From: a virus
DNA: 64,000 bases
Strand: one strand, 5' to 3'
IMG/VR virus record: IMGVR_UViG_3300032163_000010
Coordinates: 1-64,000 of that record
The notes below the pieces were generated by a model. It did not search any database, was not told the origin of the DNA, and saw only the letters and a program-made list of their open reading frames with translations. Numbering within the stretch: position 1 is the stretch's first letter; each line of letters starts with the position of its first letter. Of this stretch, positions 16,684 through 51,049 are shown piece after piece. The translations under genes were made by a program, and so were the position numbers.

Positions 16684-16742
16684 ACCCCGATCTCTCCGCG
16701 TAACCGTATCGAAAATGTTAAATACTCGACCGGCGGTCTTTC
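16684..16742 (+). promoter_or_regulatory. BRE/TATA promoter with downstream palindrome, homologous to 20955-21007
   Basis: ACCCCGATCTCTCC...CGAAAATGTTAAATA-CTC-GACCGGCGGTC-TTTC. Confidence 0.7.
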
Positions 16743-16834: not shown

Positions 16835-17128
16835 ATGCCCATAAGTTTAGCGGAGTTCCGGAAGTTGGAACAAGCCCCTGCGAAAGCAGGACCAGGAAGC
16901 AAGTTCGTTAGGAAATGTGACTGGTCGAAGGTCACAAGCGAACTGGCCGGCCAGGGATGGACGGTGAAAGAAGCTCTCGCGGTAGCGATGAAGCATGTCG
17001 GGAAAGACCAGAGTATATCGAGGGTCAGGACCAAGAGGTTCCTCGACAAGCTCGTCGAGAAGAAGCTTGCCGTGAAGATGTTCGACGGCATGGGTTACGT
17101 GTACTACGTGAATCCACCGGCGAAGTAA
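16835..17128 (+). CDS. Winged-helix protein, MPIS family, paralogue 3
   Basis: MPISLAEFRKL...KCDW...WTVKEAL...ISRVRTKRFLDKLVEKKLA...YVY. Confidence 0.8.
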   Translation: MPISLAEFRKLEQAPAKAGPGSKFVRKCDWSKVTSELAGQGWTVKEALAVAMKHVGKDQSISRVRTKRFLDKLVEKKLAVKMFDGMGYVYYVNPPAK

Positions 17129-17217
17129 TCGTCCAATTTTTTGTCCCCAGTTTTTATGTCATAGCTCCGGATTCGAGAGAGTCATTTCATATCAAAGTCA
17201 GGAGACCATCCCGGTTC

Positions 17218-17235
17218 GAAAGTTTTATATAGTTA
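17218..17235 (+). promoter_or_regulatory. Archaeal BRE/TATA promoter
   Basis: GAAAGTTTTATATAGTTA, followed by a leader with the hairpin CCTTG..CAGGGT/ATCCTGCAAGG. Confidence 0.75.
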
Positions 17236-18617: not shown

Positions 18618-19274
18618 ACCAAGAACAATTGGTCCGCAGGATTAAAGTCCTCATTGGAAGGGACGATTGGTCGGAGATTGTGATAACCAAGGAGGGTCAC
18701 GGATATAAACTCGAGATTAACGATCCGAATCGAGGAGTGCCATTTTCGAAGAAACTTCTTGAGGACAAGGATCCGCTGAAGCCTGATAAGTCCTTACGTG
18801 GAACAATGAAGGGGTGGTAAAAGATGAAGTACACAAAACAGGAATTTGATAAAGCCTCCGAGGGTTACGAAGACCCTGTAGAATTGCTTGCCAGAATTAA
18901 AGTCATTGAGCTGCTCGATAGCCAAGTTAGTGACATTGAAATCAAAGACGTCTCGATGTATGGAGGAGGGTATCTTATCGAACTGGAGTTCATAGTAACA
19001 ATGGAACTTGGTGAGTCAAATGAACTGGTTGACATCATCAAGGAAAGCATCGAGGGATGGAAGGACGCCGACTTCTACAACGAAATGAAGTTGCAATTAG
19101 ATGCTATCGAGGCGAAGCCAACGTTGGAGGACATCGTAGAGTTCTTCAGGAAGAACGGTTGGACGATGGATGACATGATAGAAATCCTGTTGGACATGAA
19201 GGACAAAGAAACCGCTAAGCAAGCGTTCGGGGTCGCTATAGAAAAGACATGGGATACATAGGAGGCAAAGATGG

Positions 19275-19757
19275 ATGGGTAGGAAACGCTCCGTAGCACA
19301 AGAGGTCATCGTTAGGGAACAGAAGAGACGTCGAGCAAAGGCAGTCAAATTATTGAATGGATGGCACTATTGCCCAAGGTGTAGGAGGAATTCTATCGAG
19401 ACGGATTTTGTCATGAATCGCAAGGGAGTCAAGATTACGGAGAAGACGATCAGACCGGGGCCTTCGGGTAACGAGATTGTCAAGGTTCATCTCGCGGGGT
19501 CAATTTGCAGGAGTTGTGGGGAGAAGGAGCTAGTGTGGCTACTCCCCGGAGAGGAACTCATCGACCTGTATCATATATTACATGATAGGATACAAGTAGA
19601 TGTCAGGATTAGAGACATGATGGAATGGTTGTTCGCGGTACCACAGGATTCAGCGGAGGACAGGAGAAAGGAAGCAAAGAGGAAGGAAGAGGCCGAGCTG
19701 GAGAAATGGAGGAAGGAAGCTCCAGTGATCACGATTCCTGATAAGAAGGAAGAATAA
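19275..19757 (+). CDS. elf1: Elf1-like transcription elongation factor (Zn ribbon) with C-terminal extension
   Basis: Basic MGRKRS N-terminus, YCPRC...S, CRSCG, then P.EELIDLYH...D; colinear with the Elf1 pattern MGxRK...FxCPxC...CxxC...ExIDxYxxxxD. Confidence 0.65.
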   Translation: MGRKRSVAQEVIVREQKRRRAKAVKLLNGWHYCPRCRRNSIETDFVMNRKGVKITEKTIRPGPSGNEIVKVHLAGSICRSCGEKELVWLLPGEELIDLYHILHDRIQVDVRIRDMMEWLFAVPQDSAEDRRKEAKRKEEAELEKWRKEAPVITIPDKKEE

Positions 19758-19771
19758 CCGAGGTTGATAGA

Positions 19772-20041
19772 ATGATCACGTGCACAAATTGCAAGTCAGA
19801 AGTCTTCAAAGCAGAGAAGCTGAAAAGCGAGCATGGAACTATCACGGTGAGATTGACATGTGCGAAGTGCGGTCATCGAGTGCAAGTGTGGATTGAAAAC
19901 GCCGCGCTTAAAGAATTGGTGAAAGAGATAAAGGCATACAATGAGATACAACATGGACTAAGTGAAACAATACAGATGGTAATAGACTATGAATCGAAAT
20001 CTTGGTGGCGGAAGATCCTCGGAGGTCGATGGGTAGAATGA
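19772..20041 (+). CDS. Zn-ribbon protein
   Basis: CTNC...CAKCGH and a C-terminal WWRK. Confidence 0.6.
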   Translation: MITCTNCKSEVFKAEKLKSEHGTITVRLTCAKCGHRVQVWIENAALKELVKEIKAYNEIQHGLSETIQMVIDYESKSWWRKILGGRWVE

Positions 20042-20310
20042 GTGAAAAACCATTACGAAATCGATGGGAGATACAGGCTGACATCATTGATACATGTCCT
20101 GCAATAGTTACAAGAATCATGACTAATGCAAGTGTGGGTTGGAGGCCACTTGTAGGGATACTTGGTCATCTTATTGAGAAAGGATACCTGATTAGGCAAA
20201 TAGGAAAATCTGTTAGTATAACAAGTCACAGCATGGTAACGATATACTATTCAACCCAACGAGGGAGAGAGTACGTGGCACTTGTGAGAAGAGTAGCTGA
20301 GGCGTCATAA
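20038..20310 (+). CDS. Archaeal winged-helix regulator (HTH_45/ArnR-like)
   Basis: RNRWEIQADII...TRIMTNASV...LIEKGYL...YYSTQRG. Confidence 0.75.
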   Translation: MSEKPLRNRWEIQADIIDTCPAIVTRIMTNASVGWRPLVGILGHLIEKGYLIRQIGKSVSITSHSMVTIYYSTQRGREYVALVRRVAEAS

Positions 20311-20954: not shown

Positions 20955-21007
20955 ACCCCTATCTCTCCCCTGAGCGAAAGTTTTAAATAGCAGACCGGGC
21001 GTCTTTC
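20955..21007 (+). promoter_or_regulatory. BRE/TATA promoter with downstream palindrome
   Basis: ACCCCTATCTCTCC...CGAAAGTTTTAAATAG-C-AGACCGGGCGTCT-TTC. Confidence 0.75.
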
Positions 21008-28526: not shown

Positions 28527-28892
28527 TTGCCTGTAATATGGTATGTTGACGGATCAGGGAAGGGGAGAGTTGTAGCTGTTAACGCAGCGAGGACGAAGGT
28601 CATAGATAAGTATACCCGGGCGAAGACGAATAATGAGGCCGAATGGGAGGCAGTCTTAGCCGCACTGGGTTACGTGGCAGAGGGATGCGAGGTAGAGGTA
28701 AGGACGGATTCCTTGGATGTTGTCAAGTGGATCGATGGAACCTATCGCACGGTGGATTCGAGAATGAGGGATTACAAGGAGAGGGTCTTATTTATGATTA
28801 AGCAGAAGAGATTAACATGTAAGGTCGTGCATGTGGCCAGAGAGGAGAACCTAGCGGGGATGATAATGGAGGGTAAGCTGAGAATTGAGTAA
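28527..28892 (+). CDS. rnhA: Ribonuclease HI
   Basis: YVDGS, TNNEAE, TDS and HVAREEN.A catalytic motifs. Confidence 0.85.
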   Translation: MPVIWYVDGSGKGRVVAVNAARTKVIDKYTRAKTNNEAEWEAVLAALGYVAEGCEVEVRTDSLDVVKWIDGTYRTVDSRMRDYKERVLFMIKQKRLTCKVVHVAREENLAGMIMEGKLRIE

Positions 28893-31178: not shown

Positions 31179-32123
31179 ATGTTGGTTGAGAAATACCGCC
31201 CCAAGAGTTTTGCTGAGGTCTATGGACATAAGAGGATCATAGACTCACTGAAAGGGTTTGTCACATTGAAAGAAATGCCGAATCTTTTGTTCGTAGGGAA
31301 GAACGGGGTAGGGAAGACCGCCGTGGCGAATGCTTTGGCTCACGAACTAGGGATCGTGTTCCCTCAAGATTACTTAGAGATCAACTCAAGTGAAGAGAGA
31401 GGGATCGATACAATCAGGGAGAAGGTCATCGGATTTGCCAAAACAAAGGGTATCAGCCCCACGAAATGGAAGATCCTTCTTTTGGATGAAGCGGATGGAA
31501 TAACGAAACAGGCACAACAATCTCTGAGAAAAGTGATGGAACAACATGAAAAATCAGTTAGGTTTATTCTGACGTCGAATGATCTGTCGAGAGTTTCAGA
31601 GGCGCTGCAGGATAGGTGTTCGATATATATGTTCCAGGGGGTTCATTTCACTCAGATCGAATCGTTGATTAAGGATGTGGCATACAAGGAGAAGCAAGTC
31701 TTCCTGAGTGACTTCGTAGTCAAAGCGATCAGGGAGATTTCAAGGGGATCTGCGAGGAAGGCTCTGAACACCCTTGAGGCAGTGTTGACGTTAGAGAATC
31801 CTACAGTTGAAGATGTCTACCAGTTGGTCGGTTCGGCGAATGAAGAGTCAGTGTTCCATTTGGTGTTTAGTGCGTTGAAGGGTCATGTGACAGCTCTTCA
31901 AGTTCTCGATAATCTTTTGGAATCAGGAACAGATGCCACGGATGTCATCAATTTGATATACTACGGCACAGTGAGGAACACAATCCCGAGATTGACAAGT
32001 TCTGAGCGGTTAGTTCTATTGAACGCGGTGGGTTCTGTTCCTGGATCGACAGATGAACAGAGACTCGGGGGAATTATTGCAAGAGTGATACAGATCATCG
32101 GACCAGTGGAGGCTTCGGAATGA
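31179..32123 (+). CDS. rfcS: Replication factor C small subunit (clamp loader)
   Basis: VEKYRP, GKNGVGKT, EINSSEERGID, LLDEAD, AQQSLRK, ALQDRC and GSARKALN. Confidence 0.92.
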   Translation: MLVEKYRPKSFAEVYGHKRIIDSLKGFVTLKEMPNLLFVGKNGVGKTAVANALAHELGIVFPQDYLEINSSEERGIDTIREKVIGFAKTKGISPTKWKILLLDEADGITKQAQQSLRKVMEQHEKSVRFILTSNDLSRVSEALQDRCSIYMFQGVHFTQIESLIKDVAYKEKQVFLSDFVVKAIREISRGSARKALNTLEAVLTLENPTVEDVYQLVGSANEESVFHLVFSALKGHVTALQVLDNLLESGTDATDVINLIYYGTVRNTIPRLTSSERLVLLNAVGSVPGSTDEQRLGGIIARVIQIIGPVEASE

Positions 32124-32145: not shown

Positions 32146-33057
32146 TTGGACTCAGAGGTTAAAGTAAAGACAGCTATTGGAACTGTGATAATAAAATCGC
32201 AGGAGATGTTGCAACTGGGAAAAAATGAAGTTGGTTTCTTAGAAGGCAAAAGAAAACATCATCAACAAGGAGTGTTCATGCAAGGGGGAATAATCAATGC
32301 GGGCTGGGGAGGTACAGCTAAGATGGGAATTAATGGATGTACGTTATGTGAGTTGACGAGAAAGAGTATCGTTAAGGGAAATGGTAATCCTAAAGCTCGA
32401 TTAATGATCATCGGAGAGGCTCCAGGAGAGGAAGAAGACCTACAAGGAAAGCCATTCGTTGGCCGATCAGGCAAGTTGTTGAACGCAACTCTGGCCAAGA
32501 TGGGGATCAAGAGGGAAGATATCTACGTGACGAATATCATGAAATGTCATCCACCAGGGAATAGAAGACCTCTTCAGACGGAGATTGATAACTGCACTAT
32601 GTATCTACTAGAGGAAATCCGAAGTGTTGATCCAGAAGTCATCGCAACATTGGGATTGTCTGCAGCGAACTGGTTCTTGCCAGGAGAGACCATGGGGGAG
32701 ATGAACGGTAGGGTATTTAACATTCAAATCAATGATAAATCAAGGAAGATAGTTCCAGTGTACCATCCGAGTGCGGTGTTGAGGAATCCGAACATCAAAG
32801 ATTCGTTCGAACGAGCAATGAAGGTAGCCATTGAGGAGAGCCGAGAAGTAATGAAGATTAACGAAGGAGATTTTGTAGCTGCGGCCGCTGATGGGTTTAT
32901 CAGGAAAGCGAGGAAGAACGATAGACCTGTAGGGACAGTGGTTAACAAGGATACATTCACTAGTGGGACAATTGTGAAGATGAAAACCAAAGATGGAACG
33001 GAGTATTGGGTGACAATAACAGGATATGTTCCTGAGTTTGTGGAGGTGAAACCCTAA
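32146..33057 (+). CDS. udg: Family-4 uracil-DNA glycosylase with an N-terminal dCTP-deaminase/dUTPase-like fragment and a C-terminal extension
   Basis: CTLC, IIGEAPG, PFVGRSG, TNIMKCHPPGNR and YHPS motifs; N-terminal GFLEGKR...GVF..GGIINAGWGG. Confidence 0.88.
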   Translation: MDSEVKVKTAIGTVIIKSQEMLQLGKNEVGFLEGKRKHHQQGVFMQGGIINAGWGGTAKMGINGCTLCELTRKSIVKGNGNPKARLMIIGEAPGEEEDLQGKPFVGRSGKLLNATLAKMGIKREDIYVTNIMKCHPPGNRRPLQTEIDNCTMYLLEEIRSVDPEVIATLGLSAANWFLPGETMGEMNGRVFNIQINDKSRKIVPVYHPSAVLRNPNIKDSFERAMKVAIEESREVMKINEGDFVAAAADGFIRKARKNDRPVGTVVNKDTFTSGTIVKMKTKDGTEYWVTITGYVPEFVEVKP

Positions 33058-50401: not shown

Positions 50402-51049
50402 ATGATTTACGTCGATAGCCGTGAGCCTGCCGAAGTGATGCAGAGAGTCTGGGATAGGAAGATATCTCATATAGTGAAGAAACTCGAGGTGGCGGATTTT
50501 CAAAATGAAAAAGAAACGGCGTTTATCGAAAGGAAGAAACCAGAAGACATCTGGGGAAGAGTCCTCAATAAGAACAACGGATGGGATGATCAAATGGGGA
50601 GGCTCTCTGAATATGCTTATGCACATAATGCCATGCCTTGGCTCATCGTTGAAGGGAGCTTTGATGCCGCTATACGCCGCACCAACGGGAAGATCCATGT
50701 CGATGAGACTCGAGGAGCGATTGTCAGCGCTGCTGTTAGGTATGGAATCGCGGTCTGGAATGCCGACTCGTTGGATGACCTCCTCACCGTGGTCTGTGCT
50801 ATCTGCGACAAAGCAGATAGAGAACTAGGAGTTCCAAGGAGATTACCATTCTCTCACTTAGCTATGGATAAACGCGCAGCAATCTTGATGAACGTGTGTC
50901 ATGTAAGTTCGAGACAAGCCGAGTCGTTGTTGAATTACTTTGGATCAGTTAGAAATGTGTTGTTAGCTTCAGAAGATCAACTAGCGATTGTGAATAATGT
51001 TGGGAGGATAACTGCGAGAAAGATATGCCAGTATAAGGACTCGGTGTGA
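50402..51049 (+). CDS. ERCC4/XPF-family structure-specific nuclease with HhH domain
   Basis: IYVDSRE, ADF, IERK, LIVEG and the HhH segment LLNYFGSVRNVLLASEDQLAIVNNVG. Confidence 0.9.
   Translation: MIYVDSREPAEVMQRVWDRKISHIVKKLEVADFQNEKETAFIERKKPEDIWGRVLNKNNGWDDQMGRLSEYAYAHNAMPWLIVEGSFDAAIRRTNGKIHVDETRGAIVSAAVRYGIAVWNADSLDDLLTVVCAICDKADRELGVPRRLPFSHLAMDKRAAILMNVCHVSSRQAESLLNYFGSVRNVLLASEDQLAIVNNVGRITARKICQYKDSV

What the first reader, a model, noticed from the sequence alone, without database searches (positions are those of the whole stretch)
19275..19757. Virus-encoded Elf1-like transcription elongation factor
Seen in sequence: a basic MGRKRS tail, a CPRC/CRSC Zn ribbon and a following EELIDLYHILHD helix, plus a ~15-aa insertion and a charged C-terminal extension. 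Established: Elf1/ELOF1 binds elongating RNA polymerase in eukaryotes and in TACK and Asgard archaea. Inference: the virus modifies host RNAP elongation (processivity, antitermination or shut-off). It could be a partner of the early-region hairpins, and it points to a TACK host.
Basis: partly seen in the sequence, partly recalled or inferred. Interest (0 to 1): 0.7.

Follow-up and report, generated by a model that had tools for sequence, protein, structure and literature searches.

The report
Elf1-like elongation factor in archaeal virus
A tailed virus from sediment, most likely of archaea, carries a divergent, enlarged copy of Elf1, a small zinc protein that rides on RNA polymerase in archaea and eukaryotes, so the virus may tamper with host transcription elongation, though binding is not shown.

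Summary
It belongs to a very rare family: about 10 clusters among 5.8 billion, and all other members lie on contigs of 5 kb or less.

Three lines point to Elf1.
- PF05129 is the family matched by all 7 of 7 members. The matches run nearly full length, and one exceeds the curated cut-off.
- In a family-profile search of PDB sequences, the top seven hits are Elf1/ELOF1.
- In an all-against-48,161 fold search with the AlphaFold domain model, ranks 1-4 are Elf1/ELOF1.

Each line alone is weak. The window protein scores only 14.8 bits, and unrelated Trm112-like ribbons reach 26.7 bits.

It differs from canonical Elf1 in three ways: the spacer between the zinc knuckles is doubled by a beta-hairpin insert, the basic N-helix is longer, and the C-terminus is a helical, mixed-charge extension.

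The genome looks archaeal-viral. A TACK host is not shown, and RNA polymerase binding is untested. The scan holds two unverified notes of Elf1-like genes in other viruses.

The parts
17218..17231 (+). BRE/TATA-like promoter motif GAAAGTTTTATATA, heading the transcription unit that contains the Elf1-like gene
   Evidence: (sequence): the pattern has 4 matches in the window against 0.06 expected. All are on the + strand, at 16711, 17218, 20976 and 34210. The pattern was derived from the first two, so only the last two are independent.
19260..19265 (+). Shine-Dalgarno-like AGGAGG, 9 nt upstream of the ATG
   Evidence: read directly from the sequence.
19275..19757 (+). Elf1-like ORF, 160 aa plus stop
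19275..19364 (+). Basic N-terminal tail/helix, residues 1-30, with 10 K/R and 2 D/E
   Evidence: charge count; helix predicted at residues 7-27/28.
19371..19382 (+). First zinc knuckle, CPRC (residues 33-36)
   Evidence: C33, P34 and C36 are invariant in 11 of 11 sequences.
19407..19484 (+). Family-specific beta-hairpin insertion between the knuckles, about residues 45-70, with 6 K/R and 2 D/E
   Evidence: spacer of 41 residues against 20 in yeast Elf1; strands 38-45, 55-62 and 65-78; 62 of 64 ELOF1 residues align within model range 25-110, leaving about 24 model residues unaligned.
19506..19517 (+). Second zinc knuckle, CRSC (residues 78-81)
   Evidence: C78 and C81 are invariant. The knuckle aligns to CKIC of yeast Elf1.
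19551..19586 (+). Elf1-type helix motif EELIDLYHILHD (residues 93-104)
   Evidence: E93, L95, D97 and Y99 are invariant and D104 is conserved in at least 90%. The motif aligns to [11 protein letters not shown] of yeast Elf1.
19587..19754 (+). C-terminal extension, residues 105-160: continuation of the helix plus a second helix, mixed charge, variable within the family
   Evidence: helices 95-121 and 127-148, pLDDT 52-81 per 10-residue block over residues 101-160; 14 K/R, 15 D/E; variable length, 2-77 residues after the motif.
20002..20310 (+). Neighbouring HTH_45 / Sso10a-family winged-helix gene. The same kind of gene follows the Elf1-like gene in the only other locus with context.
   Evidence: PF14947, 30.3 bits against a cut-off of 25.5; NF053610 Sso10a_fam, 32.2 bits, below its cut-off of 60; L072.
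20976..20989 (+). Next copy of the promoter-like motif, marking the downstream limit of the transcription unit
   Evidence: No T5+ run lies between 17156 and 21852 on the + strand.

Best explanation
The gene encodes a divergent, enlarged homologue of the archaeo-eukaryotic transcription elongation factor Elf1/ELOF1. It is carried by an environmental tailed virus whose replication genes and promoters look archaeal.

Shown here: the protein keeps the three parts of Elf1 in the right order. These are a basic N-terminal helix, a four-cysteine zinc ribbon, and the following helix with the D-x-Y...D motif. Its predicted fold superposes on nearly the whole of ELOF1.

Inferred: the ribbon core docks on the host RNA polymerase where cellular Elf1 sits, beside Spt4/5 at the rim of the DNA cleft. 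The basic tail lies on downstream DNA. The virus-specific additions are a basic beta-hairpin in the ribbon and two C-terminal helices. They would give the bound polymerase altered behaviour, either more processive or termination-resistant transcription of the long viral operons, or exclusion of host Elf1 and shut-down of host genes.

My odds: about 0.85 that it is an Elf1 homologue, about 0.6 that it binds RNA polymerase at the Elf1 site, and no call on the direction of the effect.
For: (1) Pfam. PF05129 is matched by 7 of 7 family members and is the best-scoring family in 6 of them; in the window protein it ties with an 11-residue SprT match. Matches span model positions 9-13 to 75-79 of 79. 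Scores are 14.8 (window), 21.1, 26.0, 27.8, 29.1, 29.4 and 32.8 bits against a cut-off of 29.8. Five of the 7 hits carry a precomputed PF05129 label.

(2) PDB sequences. Family profiles against 177,635 PDB sequences give Elf1/ELOF1 as the top seven hits with A1 (E 0.001-0.22) and the top five with A5 (E 0.0017-0.044). The second knuckle and the D-x-Y...D helix are aligned.

(3) Fold. The 110-residue AlphaFold model has pLDDT 80.5. Against 48,161 PDB representatives, ranks 1-4 are 9er2_O (ELOF1; Z 7.0, rmsd 2.2, 62 of 64 residues), 8rap_M (Elf1; 6.9), 1wii (ELOF1; 5.8) and 6ir9_M (Elf1; 5.6). The full-length model gave 4 Elf1/ELOF1 chains among the 6 with Z>=5. In Foldseek the highest probabilities go to ELOF1 (8b3d_M, prob 0.99, TMt 0.67-0.72).

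(4) Conservation. Invariant positions fall on the zinc ligands and the helix motif. The N-tail has 8-12 K/R in all 11 members.

(5) Negative control. In 121 genomes of the phylum of a Methanoregulaceae MAG, every listed sub-threshold PF05129 match ends at model position 67 or earlier. Those I translated are Trm112-like CPxCK...YPI ribbons.

(6) Viral and archaeal context. There is a terminase and a portal. The RFC small subunit has an archaeal model as best hit at 242.8 bits. Also present are an archaeal type-4 UDG, a Hef/Xpf nuclease and an Sso10a-family wHTH, a BRE/TATA-like motif, and terminase relatives inside archaeal MAG chromosomes.

(7) What Elf1 does. It seals the cleft with Spt4/5 and its basic tail lies on DNA. 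It is a general part of the Saccharolobus elongation complex. I read passages of PMC7289017, PMC9501531, PMC8448881 and PMC12462365.
Against: The window protein's own Pfam score is only 14.8 bits (E 0.031). It ties with an 11-residue SprT ribbon match. Unrelated Trm112-like ribbons reach 26.7 bits on the same model, so bit scores alone do not discriminate.

The PDB profile alignments cover only 36-41 residues. Single-sequence phmmer found no Elf1 in the PDB, nor in 1.84 billion representatives.

No Foldseek match reaches E<=0.001; Elf1 rows lie at 0.1-0.66. Z of 7.0 or less is in the range the tool calls middling. The AcrIF24 N-domain scores Z 5.3-6.2 and dsRBDs score 4-5.

The knuckle spacer is twice the canonical length, and the C-terminus is helical and mixed-charge, not an acidic tail.

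No result bears on RNA polymerase binding. The host is unknown. 0 of 41 terminase-related virus records carry the gene.
Confidence: 0.6

Rival explanations
1. The protein descends from Elf1 or shares its ribbon fold but no longer works on RNA polymerase. It would be a virus-specific nucleic-acid-binding regulator. The basic helix, the basic hairpin and the ribbon would bind viral DNA or RNA directly. Examples would be an operon repressor, a genome-packaging or chromatin-type protein acting with the neighbouring Sso10a-like wHTH, or an RNA-binding protein.
For: The core is heavily remodelled. The knuckle spacer is 41 residues against 20, there is a new hairpin with 6 K/R and 2 D/E, and there are new C-terminal helices. 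The gene sits among small DNA-binding genes. In both loci with context an HTH_45 gene lies downstream. dsRBD-type alpha-beta-beta-beta-alpha domains appear at Z 4-5 in the fold lists.
Against: The positions that stay invariant are those conserved in Elf1 itself, namely the knuckles and E-x-L-x-D-x-Y...D. This suggests selection on the Elf1-type surface. Elf1/ELOF1 chains outrank every nucleic-acid-binding fold.
Confidence: 0.25
2. It is a generic zinc ribbon unrelated to Elf1, and the resemblance is convergent or chance. Its function could be of another kind, such as Lar-like restriction alleviation or anti-CRISPR activity like the AcrIF24 N-domain.
For: The window protein is below the Pfam cut-off and ties with a SprT ribbon match. 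The PF05129 model also rings weakly on unrelated ribbons. These include the neighbouring ORF 19772-20041 (16.4-19.2 bits) and Trm112-like proteins. AcrIF24 chains score Z 5.3-6.2. Two family members have weak Lar_restr_allev matches (E 0.036-0.093).
Against: The ribbon controls match only the ribbon part of the model, to position 67 or earlier, whereas the family matches to positions 75-79. One member passes the curated cut-off. Three independent methods converge on the same small family. The AcrIF24 match has 9-10% identity and no zinc site. The A1 profile does not match the neighbouring ribbon ORF at E<=10.
Confidence: 0.1
3. It is not a functional gene but a chance ORF or a decaying fragment.
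For: No RNA data are available.
Against: An AGGAGG lies 9 nt upstream. The gene is packed tightly into a co-directional operon. Ten homologous sequences at 26-54% identity keep the N-terminus, the ligands and the motif. A 151-nt contig from a second study is 98% identical over 19344-19494, and the one listed difference, at 19439, is a third-position ACG>ACA change.
Confidence: 0.02

Closest known systems
Elf1 / ELOF1 (Pfam PF05129, Zn_ribbon_Elf1): transcription elongation factor of eukaryotes and of TACK and Asgard archaea
   Same: It has the same order of parts: a basic N-terminal tail or helix, a C4 zinc ribbon, then a helix with D-[VIL]-Y...D. The best sequence-profile and fold matches are to Elf1/ELOF1, and 62 of 64 ELOF1 residues superpose at 2.2 A.
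   Different: It is encoded by a virus. It has 160 aa, against chains of 64-145 residues in the PDB hits. The N-tail is 32 residues against 24 in yeast. The knuckle spacer is 41 against 20, filled by an extra basic beta-hairpin. The C-terminus is two helices of mixed charge, in place of the acidic disordered tail described for eukaryotic Elf1 (PMC7289017, passage read). Identity to solved Elf1/ELOF1 is 15-19%. The window protein itself is below the Pfam cut-off.
Archaeal virus and host factors that target RNAP: ATV ORF145/RIP and TFS4 (PMC8448823 and PMC9501531; abstracts and passages seen)
   Same: They would share the goal of controlling host RNA polymerase during infection.
   Different: [quoted passage not shown] TFS4 is a host paralogue of the cleavage factor. 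Neither is a virus-borne copy of a basal elongation factor, and there is no sequence or fold relation.
Generic small zinc ribbons of phages and cells: Lar-like, Trm112-like, ribosomal L33/eL43
   Same: They share two CxxC knuckles on a small beta ribbon. Weak cross-matches occur.
   Different: They lack the basic N-helix combined with the D-x-Y...D helix. They match only the ribbon part of PF05129, and they rank below Elf1 in both profile and fold searches.

Membership tests
Elf1/ELOF1 (PF05129) | C4 zinc-ribbon signature with two CxxC knuckles (Daniels et al. 2009, PMC2732611, text read) | tested here: met
   CPRC at 33-36 and CRSC at 78-81. All four Cys are invariant in 11 of 11 sequences.
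Elf1/ELOF1 (PF05129) | Stretch of basic residues at the N-terminus (PMC2732611; PMC7289017) | tested here: met
   MGRKRS plus KRRR at 17-20. There are 10 K/R and 2 D/E in residues 1-30, and 8-12 K/R in the tail of all 11 members. A helix is predicted at 7-27.
Elf1/ELOF1 (PF05129) | Score at or above Pfam's gathering cut-off of 29.8 bits | tested here: inconclusive
   The window protein scores 14.8 bits, below the cut-off. Among relatives, 1 of 7 exceeds it (P0006, 32.8 bits) and four score 26.0-29.4. Five members carry a precomputed PF05129.19 label. Unrelated ribbons reach 26.7 bits with partial coverage.
Elf1/ELOF1 (PF05129) | Helix after the second knuckle with the conserved D-V-Y...W-x-D type motif | tested here: met
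   E-x-L-I-D-L-Y...D at 93-104, with E93, L95, D97 and Y99 invariant and D104 conserved in at least 90%. It aligns to [10 protein letters not shown] of yeast Elf1. The aromatic W is replaced by I, L, M or W within the family.
Elf1/ELOF1 (PF05129) | Elf1 fold: ribbon packed against the C-terminal helix | tested here: met
   Ranks 1-4 of 48,161 chains are Elf1/ELOF1, with Z 5.6-7.0 and 59-66 residues aligned. Z values are middling, and Foldseek E-values are not significant.
Elf1/ELOF1 (PF05129) | Compact ribbon with about 20 residues between the knuckles | tested here: not met
   41 residues in the window protein and 32-41 in the family, against 20 in the yeast chain. The excess is modelled as an added beta-hairpin.
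Elf1/ELOF1 (PF05129) | Acidic, unstructured C-terminal tail, as described for eukaryotic Elf1 (PMC7289017). From recall, it is not a feature of all archaeal Elf1. | tested here: not met
   Residues 105-160 carry 14 K/R and 15 D/E and are predicted helical. This region is variable in the family.
Elf1/ELOF1 (PF05129) | Binds the RNA polymerase elongation complex beside Spt4/5 at the DNA cleft | not testable with these tools
   The host and its polymerase are unknown. See Tried and rejected for the one attempt.
Elf1/ELOF1 (PF05129) | Cellular, usually single-copy gene of eukaryotes, TACK and Asgard archaea | tested here: not met
   The gene lies in a 72,004-bp virus record that CheckV rates 100% complete. 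The record has a terminase and a portal. There is a single copy in the record.

The most novel reading that the evidence does not exclude
The virus brings its own, re-engineered Elf1 that displaces host Elf1 on the elongating polymerase. It may even arm a polymerase whose host has no Elf1, given that the nearest terminase relatives sit in methanogen genomes. Through the added basic hairpin and C-terminal helices it would convert the polymerase into a virus-specific form. That form would resist termination or traverse chromatin, possibly working together with the Sso10a-like winged-helix protein encoded just downstream in both known loci. This would be the first viral hijack of a basal elongation factor shared by archaea and eukaryotes, an archaeal counterpart of phage antitermination factors.
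Probability: 0.3. Interest if true: 0.8.

Novelty: new variant of a known kind. Interest (0 to 1): 0.62.

Why it matters
The function of archaeal Elf1 is still described as poorly understood in PMC8448881 and PMC7289017 (passages read). The known ways in which archaeal viruses control host RNA polymerase are few; RIP and the host's TFS4 are both inhibitors.

A virus-borne Elf1 with natural add-on modules would be a new class of viral transcription factor in archaea. It would also be a natural probe for the Elf1 site on RNAP.

It makes a concrete question testable: does elongation-factor replacement, and not only initiation control or inhibition, serve as a viral take-over strategy in the archaeal and eukaryotic type of transcription machinery?

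In five literature searches I found no report of a virus-encoded Elf1. These searches cover only the open-access library.

Tried and rejected
Searches on the protein that found nothing
- Single-sequence searches found no Elf1: PDB phmmer gave only a RavA coiled-coil at E 0.59, NCBIfam gave only a YgiT finger at E 0.12, and PHROGs gave none.
- The ESM Atlas search on the protein was uninformative, with all scores below 0.9 and no common Pfam family.
- P0007, a 608-aa repeat protein, was dropped as spurious: it matched only residues 53-81, five times.
- tblastn of the window protein and of P0006 against 50,697 GenBank phage and virus records gave no match at E<=1.

Searches for further family members
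- Pattern scans of IMG/VR with four single proteins and two alignments found no further member.
- A GTDB genome scan with A2 found none.
- The JGI metagenome scan returned only the 1,858-bp contig of P0004.
- The profile search of shorter proteins (30-55 aa) found none.
A direct profile-profile comparison or tree with archaeal Elf1 was therefore not done.

Related viruses
- The A1 profile matched 0 of 5 and 0 of 36 terminase-related virus records at E<=1, while the own-genome control gave 2e-62.
- PF05129 gave one partial ribbon match in 23 of those records.
- The closest relative, G001 (terminase 76% identical), is uninformative. Its contig ends cut out the part that corresponds to about 11-33.7 kb of the window.

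RNAP binding
- Complex prediction with residues 1-125 of the family alignment and residues 1-450 of Sulfolobus acidocaldarius Rpo2, used as a stand-in host, returned 'no answer' (score 0.00). This is no evidence either way.

Expression
- No RNA holder was listed among the sequencing runs. The laid runs were DNA contigs only.

Host
- The Atlas lead to a Bathyarchaeota-dominated XPF cluster and the methanogen proviruses at 26-29% terminase identity point in different directions. I rejected any firm host call.

Other limits
- Supplements of PMC2732611, which list the Elf1 orthologues, were not seen because supplements are closed.
- Ehara et al. 2017 (Science) was not read. It is cited only through reviews.
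Full report
OBSERVATION

An AGGAGG lies at 19260-19265, nine bases before the ATG, and the preceding gene ends at 19261.

The translation starts MGRKRS. It has CPRC at residues 33-36, CRSC at 78-81 and EELIDLYHILHD at 93-104. A 56-residue C-terminal stretch carries 14 K/R and 15 D/E. Residues 1-30 carry 10 K/R and 2 D/E.

The two knuckles are 41 residues apart. The yeast Elf1 chain aligned has 20. The insertion is therefore real and is about 21 residues here, not about 15.

A SMALL, VERY RARE FAMILY

- A word-indexed search of 5.8 billion clusters found one relative, P0002 (54% identity).
- An exhaustive phmmer over 1.84 billion representatives found seven hits at E<=0.001. These include the query and one spurious repeat protein, P0007, which I dropped.
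- A profile search added P0011 and P0012.
- Cluster look-ups added P0009 and P0010. They also showed that every relative sits on a contig of 4,986 bp or less, and that none carries a name.

The 11-sequence alignment has members 26-54% identical to the window protein. It keeps M1, C33, P34, C36, C78, C81, E93, L95, D97 and Y99 invariant, and R3, R5 and D104 in at least 90%. The N-tail is 32-33 residues with 8-12 K/R in all members. The knuckle spacer is 32-41 residues. The part after the helix motif varies from 2 to 77 residues.

IS IT ELF1? SEQUENCE EVIDENCE

The window protein alone matches PF05129 (Zn_ribbon_Elf1) at only 14.8 bits (E 0.031, cut-off 29.8). However, the match runs over residues 17-106 and model positions 9-77 of 79. 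An equal-scoring SprT ribbon match covers just 11 residues.

Scanned one by one, 7 of 7 members of alignment A1 match PF05129, and it is the best-scoring family in 6 of them; in the window protein it ties with the 11-residue SprT match. The other scores are 21.1, 26.0, 27.8, 29.1, 29.4 and 32.8 bits, all nearly full-length, so one member passes the curated cut-off. Five members carry a precomputed PF05129 label in the protein collection.

A profile of the family searched against 177,635 distinct PDB sequences puts Elf1/ELOF1 chains in the top seven places with A1 (E 0.001-0.22). With A5 they fill the top five (E 0.0017-0.044). The aligned block is the second knuckle and the helix: family consensus CrsCg...llpgEeLiDlYh.lfd against yeast [27 protein letters not shown].

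IS IT ELF1? STRUCTURAL EVIDENCE

An AlphaFold2 model from the 7-sequence alignment (pLDDT 76.5) shows a helix at 7-28, five strands between 31 and 89, and helices at 95-121 and 127-148. A second model of residues 1-110 from 11 sequences has pLDDT 80.5.

Foldseek found nothing at E<=0.001 for either model. Its highest-probability rows are ELOF1: 8b3d_M (prob 0.99, TM by target 0.72 and 0.67) and 1wii (0.99 and 0.90).

The Foldseek-independent search over 48,161 PDB representatives gave six chains at Z>=5 for the full model. Four are Elf1/ELOF1 and two are AcrIF24. For the domain model, ranks 1-4 are all Elf1/ELOF1:
- 9er2_O: Z 7.0, rmsd 2.2, 62 of 64 residues
- 8rap_M: Z 6.9
- 1wii: Z 5.8
- 6ir9_M: Z 5.6

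Next come AcrIF24 and PrfH at 5.3, then dsRBDs at 4-5. The tool itself calls these Z values middling. What carries weight is that one tiny family fills the top ranks and is covered almost entirely.

CONTROLS AND WEAKNESSES

The PF05129 model rings on unrelated ribbons.
- The neighbouring ORF 19772-20041 scores 16.4-19.2 bits. It also matches many generic ribbon families and Lar-like PHROGs. The family profile does not match it at E<=10.
- In 121 genomes sampled from the phylum of a Methanoregulaceae MAG, 0 exceed the cut-off and 19 have sub-threshold matches of up to 26.7 bits. That is higher than the window protein's own score.
- All 21 listed matches end at model position 67 or earlier. The ones I translated are Trm112-like (ACPxCKG...YPI) or other plain ribbons.

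Bit score alone therefore does not discriminate. Four things together make the case: coverage through the C-terminal helix, the family-level scores, the PDB ranking and the fold ranking. I put Elf1 homology at about 0.85.

THE GENOME AND THE NEIGHBOURHOOD

The window is bases 1-64000 of a 72,004-bp IMG/VR virus record that CheckV rates 100% complete. Its gene content includes:
- a large terminase and a portal;
- a family-B DNA polymerase with a LAGLIDADG insert;
- an RFC small-subunit homologue whose best model is the archaeal equivalog (242.8 bits, below its cut-off of 303);
- an archaeal-type family-4 UDG, a Hef/Xpf-type nuclease and an RNase HI;
- QueC and a radical-SAM enzyme.

A BRE/TATA-like motif, GAAAGTTTTATATA and variants, occurs four times against 0.06 expected. 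All four are on the + strand, at 16711, 17218, 20976 and 34210. I derived the pattern from the first two, so two matches are independent.

The Elf1-like gene lies in the tightly packed unit between the copies at 17218 and 20976. No T5+ run occurs on the + strand between 17156 and 21852.

An HTH_45 / Sso10a-family winged-helix gene lies at 20002-20310, about 250 bp downstream. In the only other locus with context, the 1,858-bp contig L072, the homologue P0004 abuts an upstream ORF. It is followed by small same-strand ORFs and two HTH_45 genes. The family thus looks viral or mobile, not cellular.

RELATIVES AND HOST

A terminase scan found 64 IMG/VR loci. The family profile matched 0 of 41 of the records searched, while the own-genome control gave 2e-62 and a single copy.

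The nearest relative has 76% terminase identity and is collinear with this genome. Its contig ends remove the region equivalent to about 11-33.7 kb, so it says nothing.

In GTDB genomes, the terminase alignment hit only two proviral sites. They lie in a Methanoregulaceae and a Methanocellaceae MAG at 26-29% identity. Those two genomes have no PF05129 match above cut-off and no family match. An Atlas look-up of the XPF-like nuclease gave viral clusters and one cluster dominated by Bathyarchaeota. That is a lead only.

DNA runs that hold the stretch are labelled sediment metagenomes. One run from a second study holds a 98%-identical 151-nt piece of the gene.

An archaeal host is well supported. 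A TACK or Asgard host fits the known range of Elf1 (PMC7289017 and PMC2732611, read), but it is not shown.

MECHANISM

From the papers read:
[quoted passage not shown] The conserved basic tail can contact DNA (PMC12462365).
- Archaeal Elf1 joins the elongation complex after Spt4/5 and is a general part of it in Saccharolobus (PMC8448881).
- Yeast Elf1 slowed elongation in vitro, possibly through its N-tail (PMC7289017).

The viral protein keeps the tail, the ribbon and the helix motif. I therefore infer that it docks at the Elf1 site of the host polymerase. The added basic hairpin and the C-terminal helices are the virus-specific working parts. They might add DNA contacts, block or recruit other factors such as the termination factor aCPSF1, or exclude host Elf1.

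All of this is inference. I put binding at the Elf1 site at about 0.6 and do not call the direction of the effect. The main rival, at 0.25, is an Elf1-derived protein that now binds nucleic acid on its own.

NOVELTY

Five full-text searches found no report of a virus-encoded Elf1. They cover only the open-access library. The scan's own notebook holds two unverified first-reader notes of Elf1-like genes in other viruses, e1-6270839 and e1-5307113. I did not test them.

I class the finding as a new variant of a known kind: an Elf1-family protein in a new carrier, a virus, with a new architecture.

Noticed in passing
window 19772-20041 (+): The 89-aa ORF directly downstream is another CxxC...CxxC ribbon followed by a helix. 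It matches PF05129 weakly (16.4-19.2 bits, model positions 15-72). It also matches many generic ribbon families and PHROGs 1315 and 5516 and a Lar-like family. The Elf1-like family profile does not match it at E<=10.
   Followed up: partly
window 20002-20310 (+); L072 1420-1856: An HTH_45 / Sso10a-family winged-helix gene follows the Elf1-like gene in both loci with context. This is possible conserved linkage between a chromatin-type DNA binder and the Elf1-like protein.
   Followed up: partly
window 16711, 17218, 20976, 34210 (+): A BRE/TATA-like motif, GAAA(G/A)T(T/G)TT(A/T)(A/T)A(T/A)A, occurs 4 times against 0.06 expected, each time ahead of a gene cassette. It overlaps another first-stage finding on promoter-plus-leader cassettes.
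   Followed up: partly
window 17137-17155 (+): Two oligo-T tracts, T6 and T5, lie right after the wHTH gene 16835-17128 and about 65 nt before the promoter-like motif at 17218. Most of the 13 T5+ runs in 10.8-37.8 kb lie just after genes.
   Followed up: no
G001 (L067-L069) versus window about 11000-33700: The closest related virus record is collinear over the structural and replication modules, but its contig ends fall exactly at the borders of the small-gene early region. tblastx shows almost no similarity for the little that remains there. The early region may be hypervariable or hard to assemble.
   Followed up: partly
window 31179-32123, 32146-33057, 50402-51049, 28527-28892 (+): An archaeal-type replication and repair set is present: an RFC small-subunit homologue, a family-4 UDG fused to an N-terminal extension, a short Hef/Xpf-type ERCC4-HhH nuclease, and a small RNase HI.
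   Followed up: partly
L074 and L075 (GTDB MAG contigs): Terminase relatives at 26-29% identity lie inside a 2.6-Mb Methanoregulaceae chromosome and a 661-kb Methanocellaceae contig. They are likely proviruses of a distantly related archaeal tailed-virus lineage.
   Followed up: no
window 20015-20048: A 34-nt stretch is matched at about 80-90% by short, deeper contigs in two runs, with unrelated flanks on both sides (tables 7 and 8). It could be a short shared element or a chance match. It remains unexplained.
   Followed up: no
L085, L087, L089, L090 (genomes of the phylum of G042): Trm112-like small ribbons (ACPxCKG...YPI) are the main source of sub-threshold PF05129 matches in these archaea. 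Some of the reported six-frame matches run through a stop codon upstream of the ORF.
   Followed up: partly
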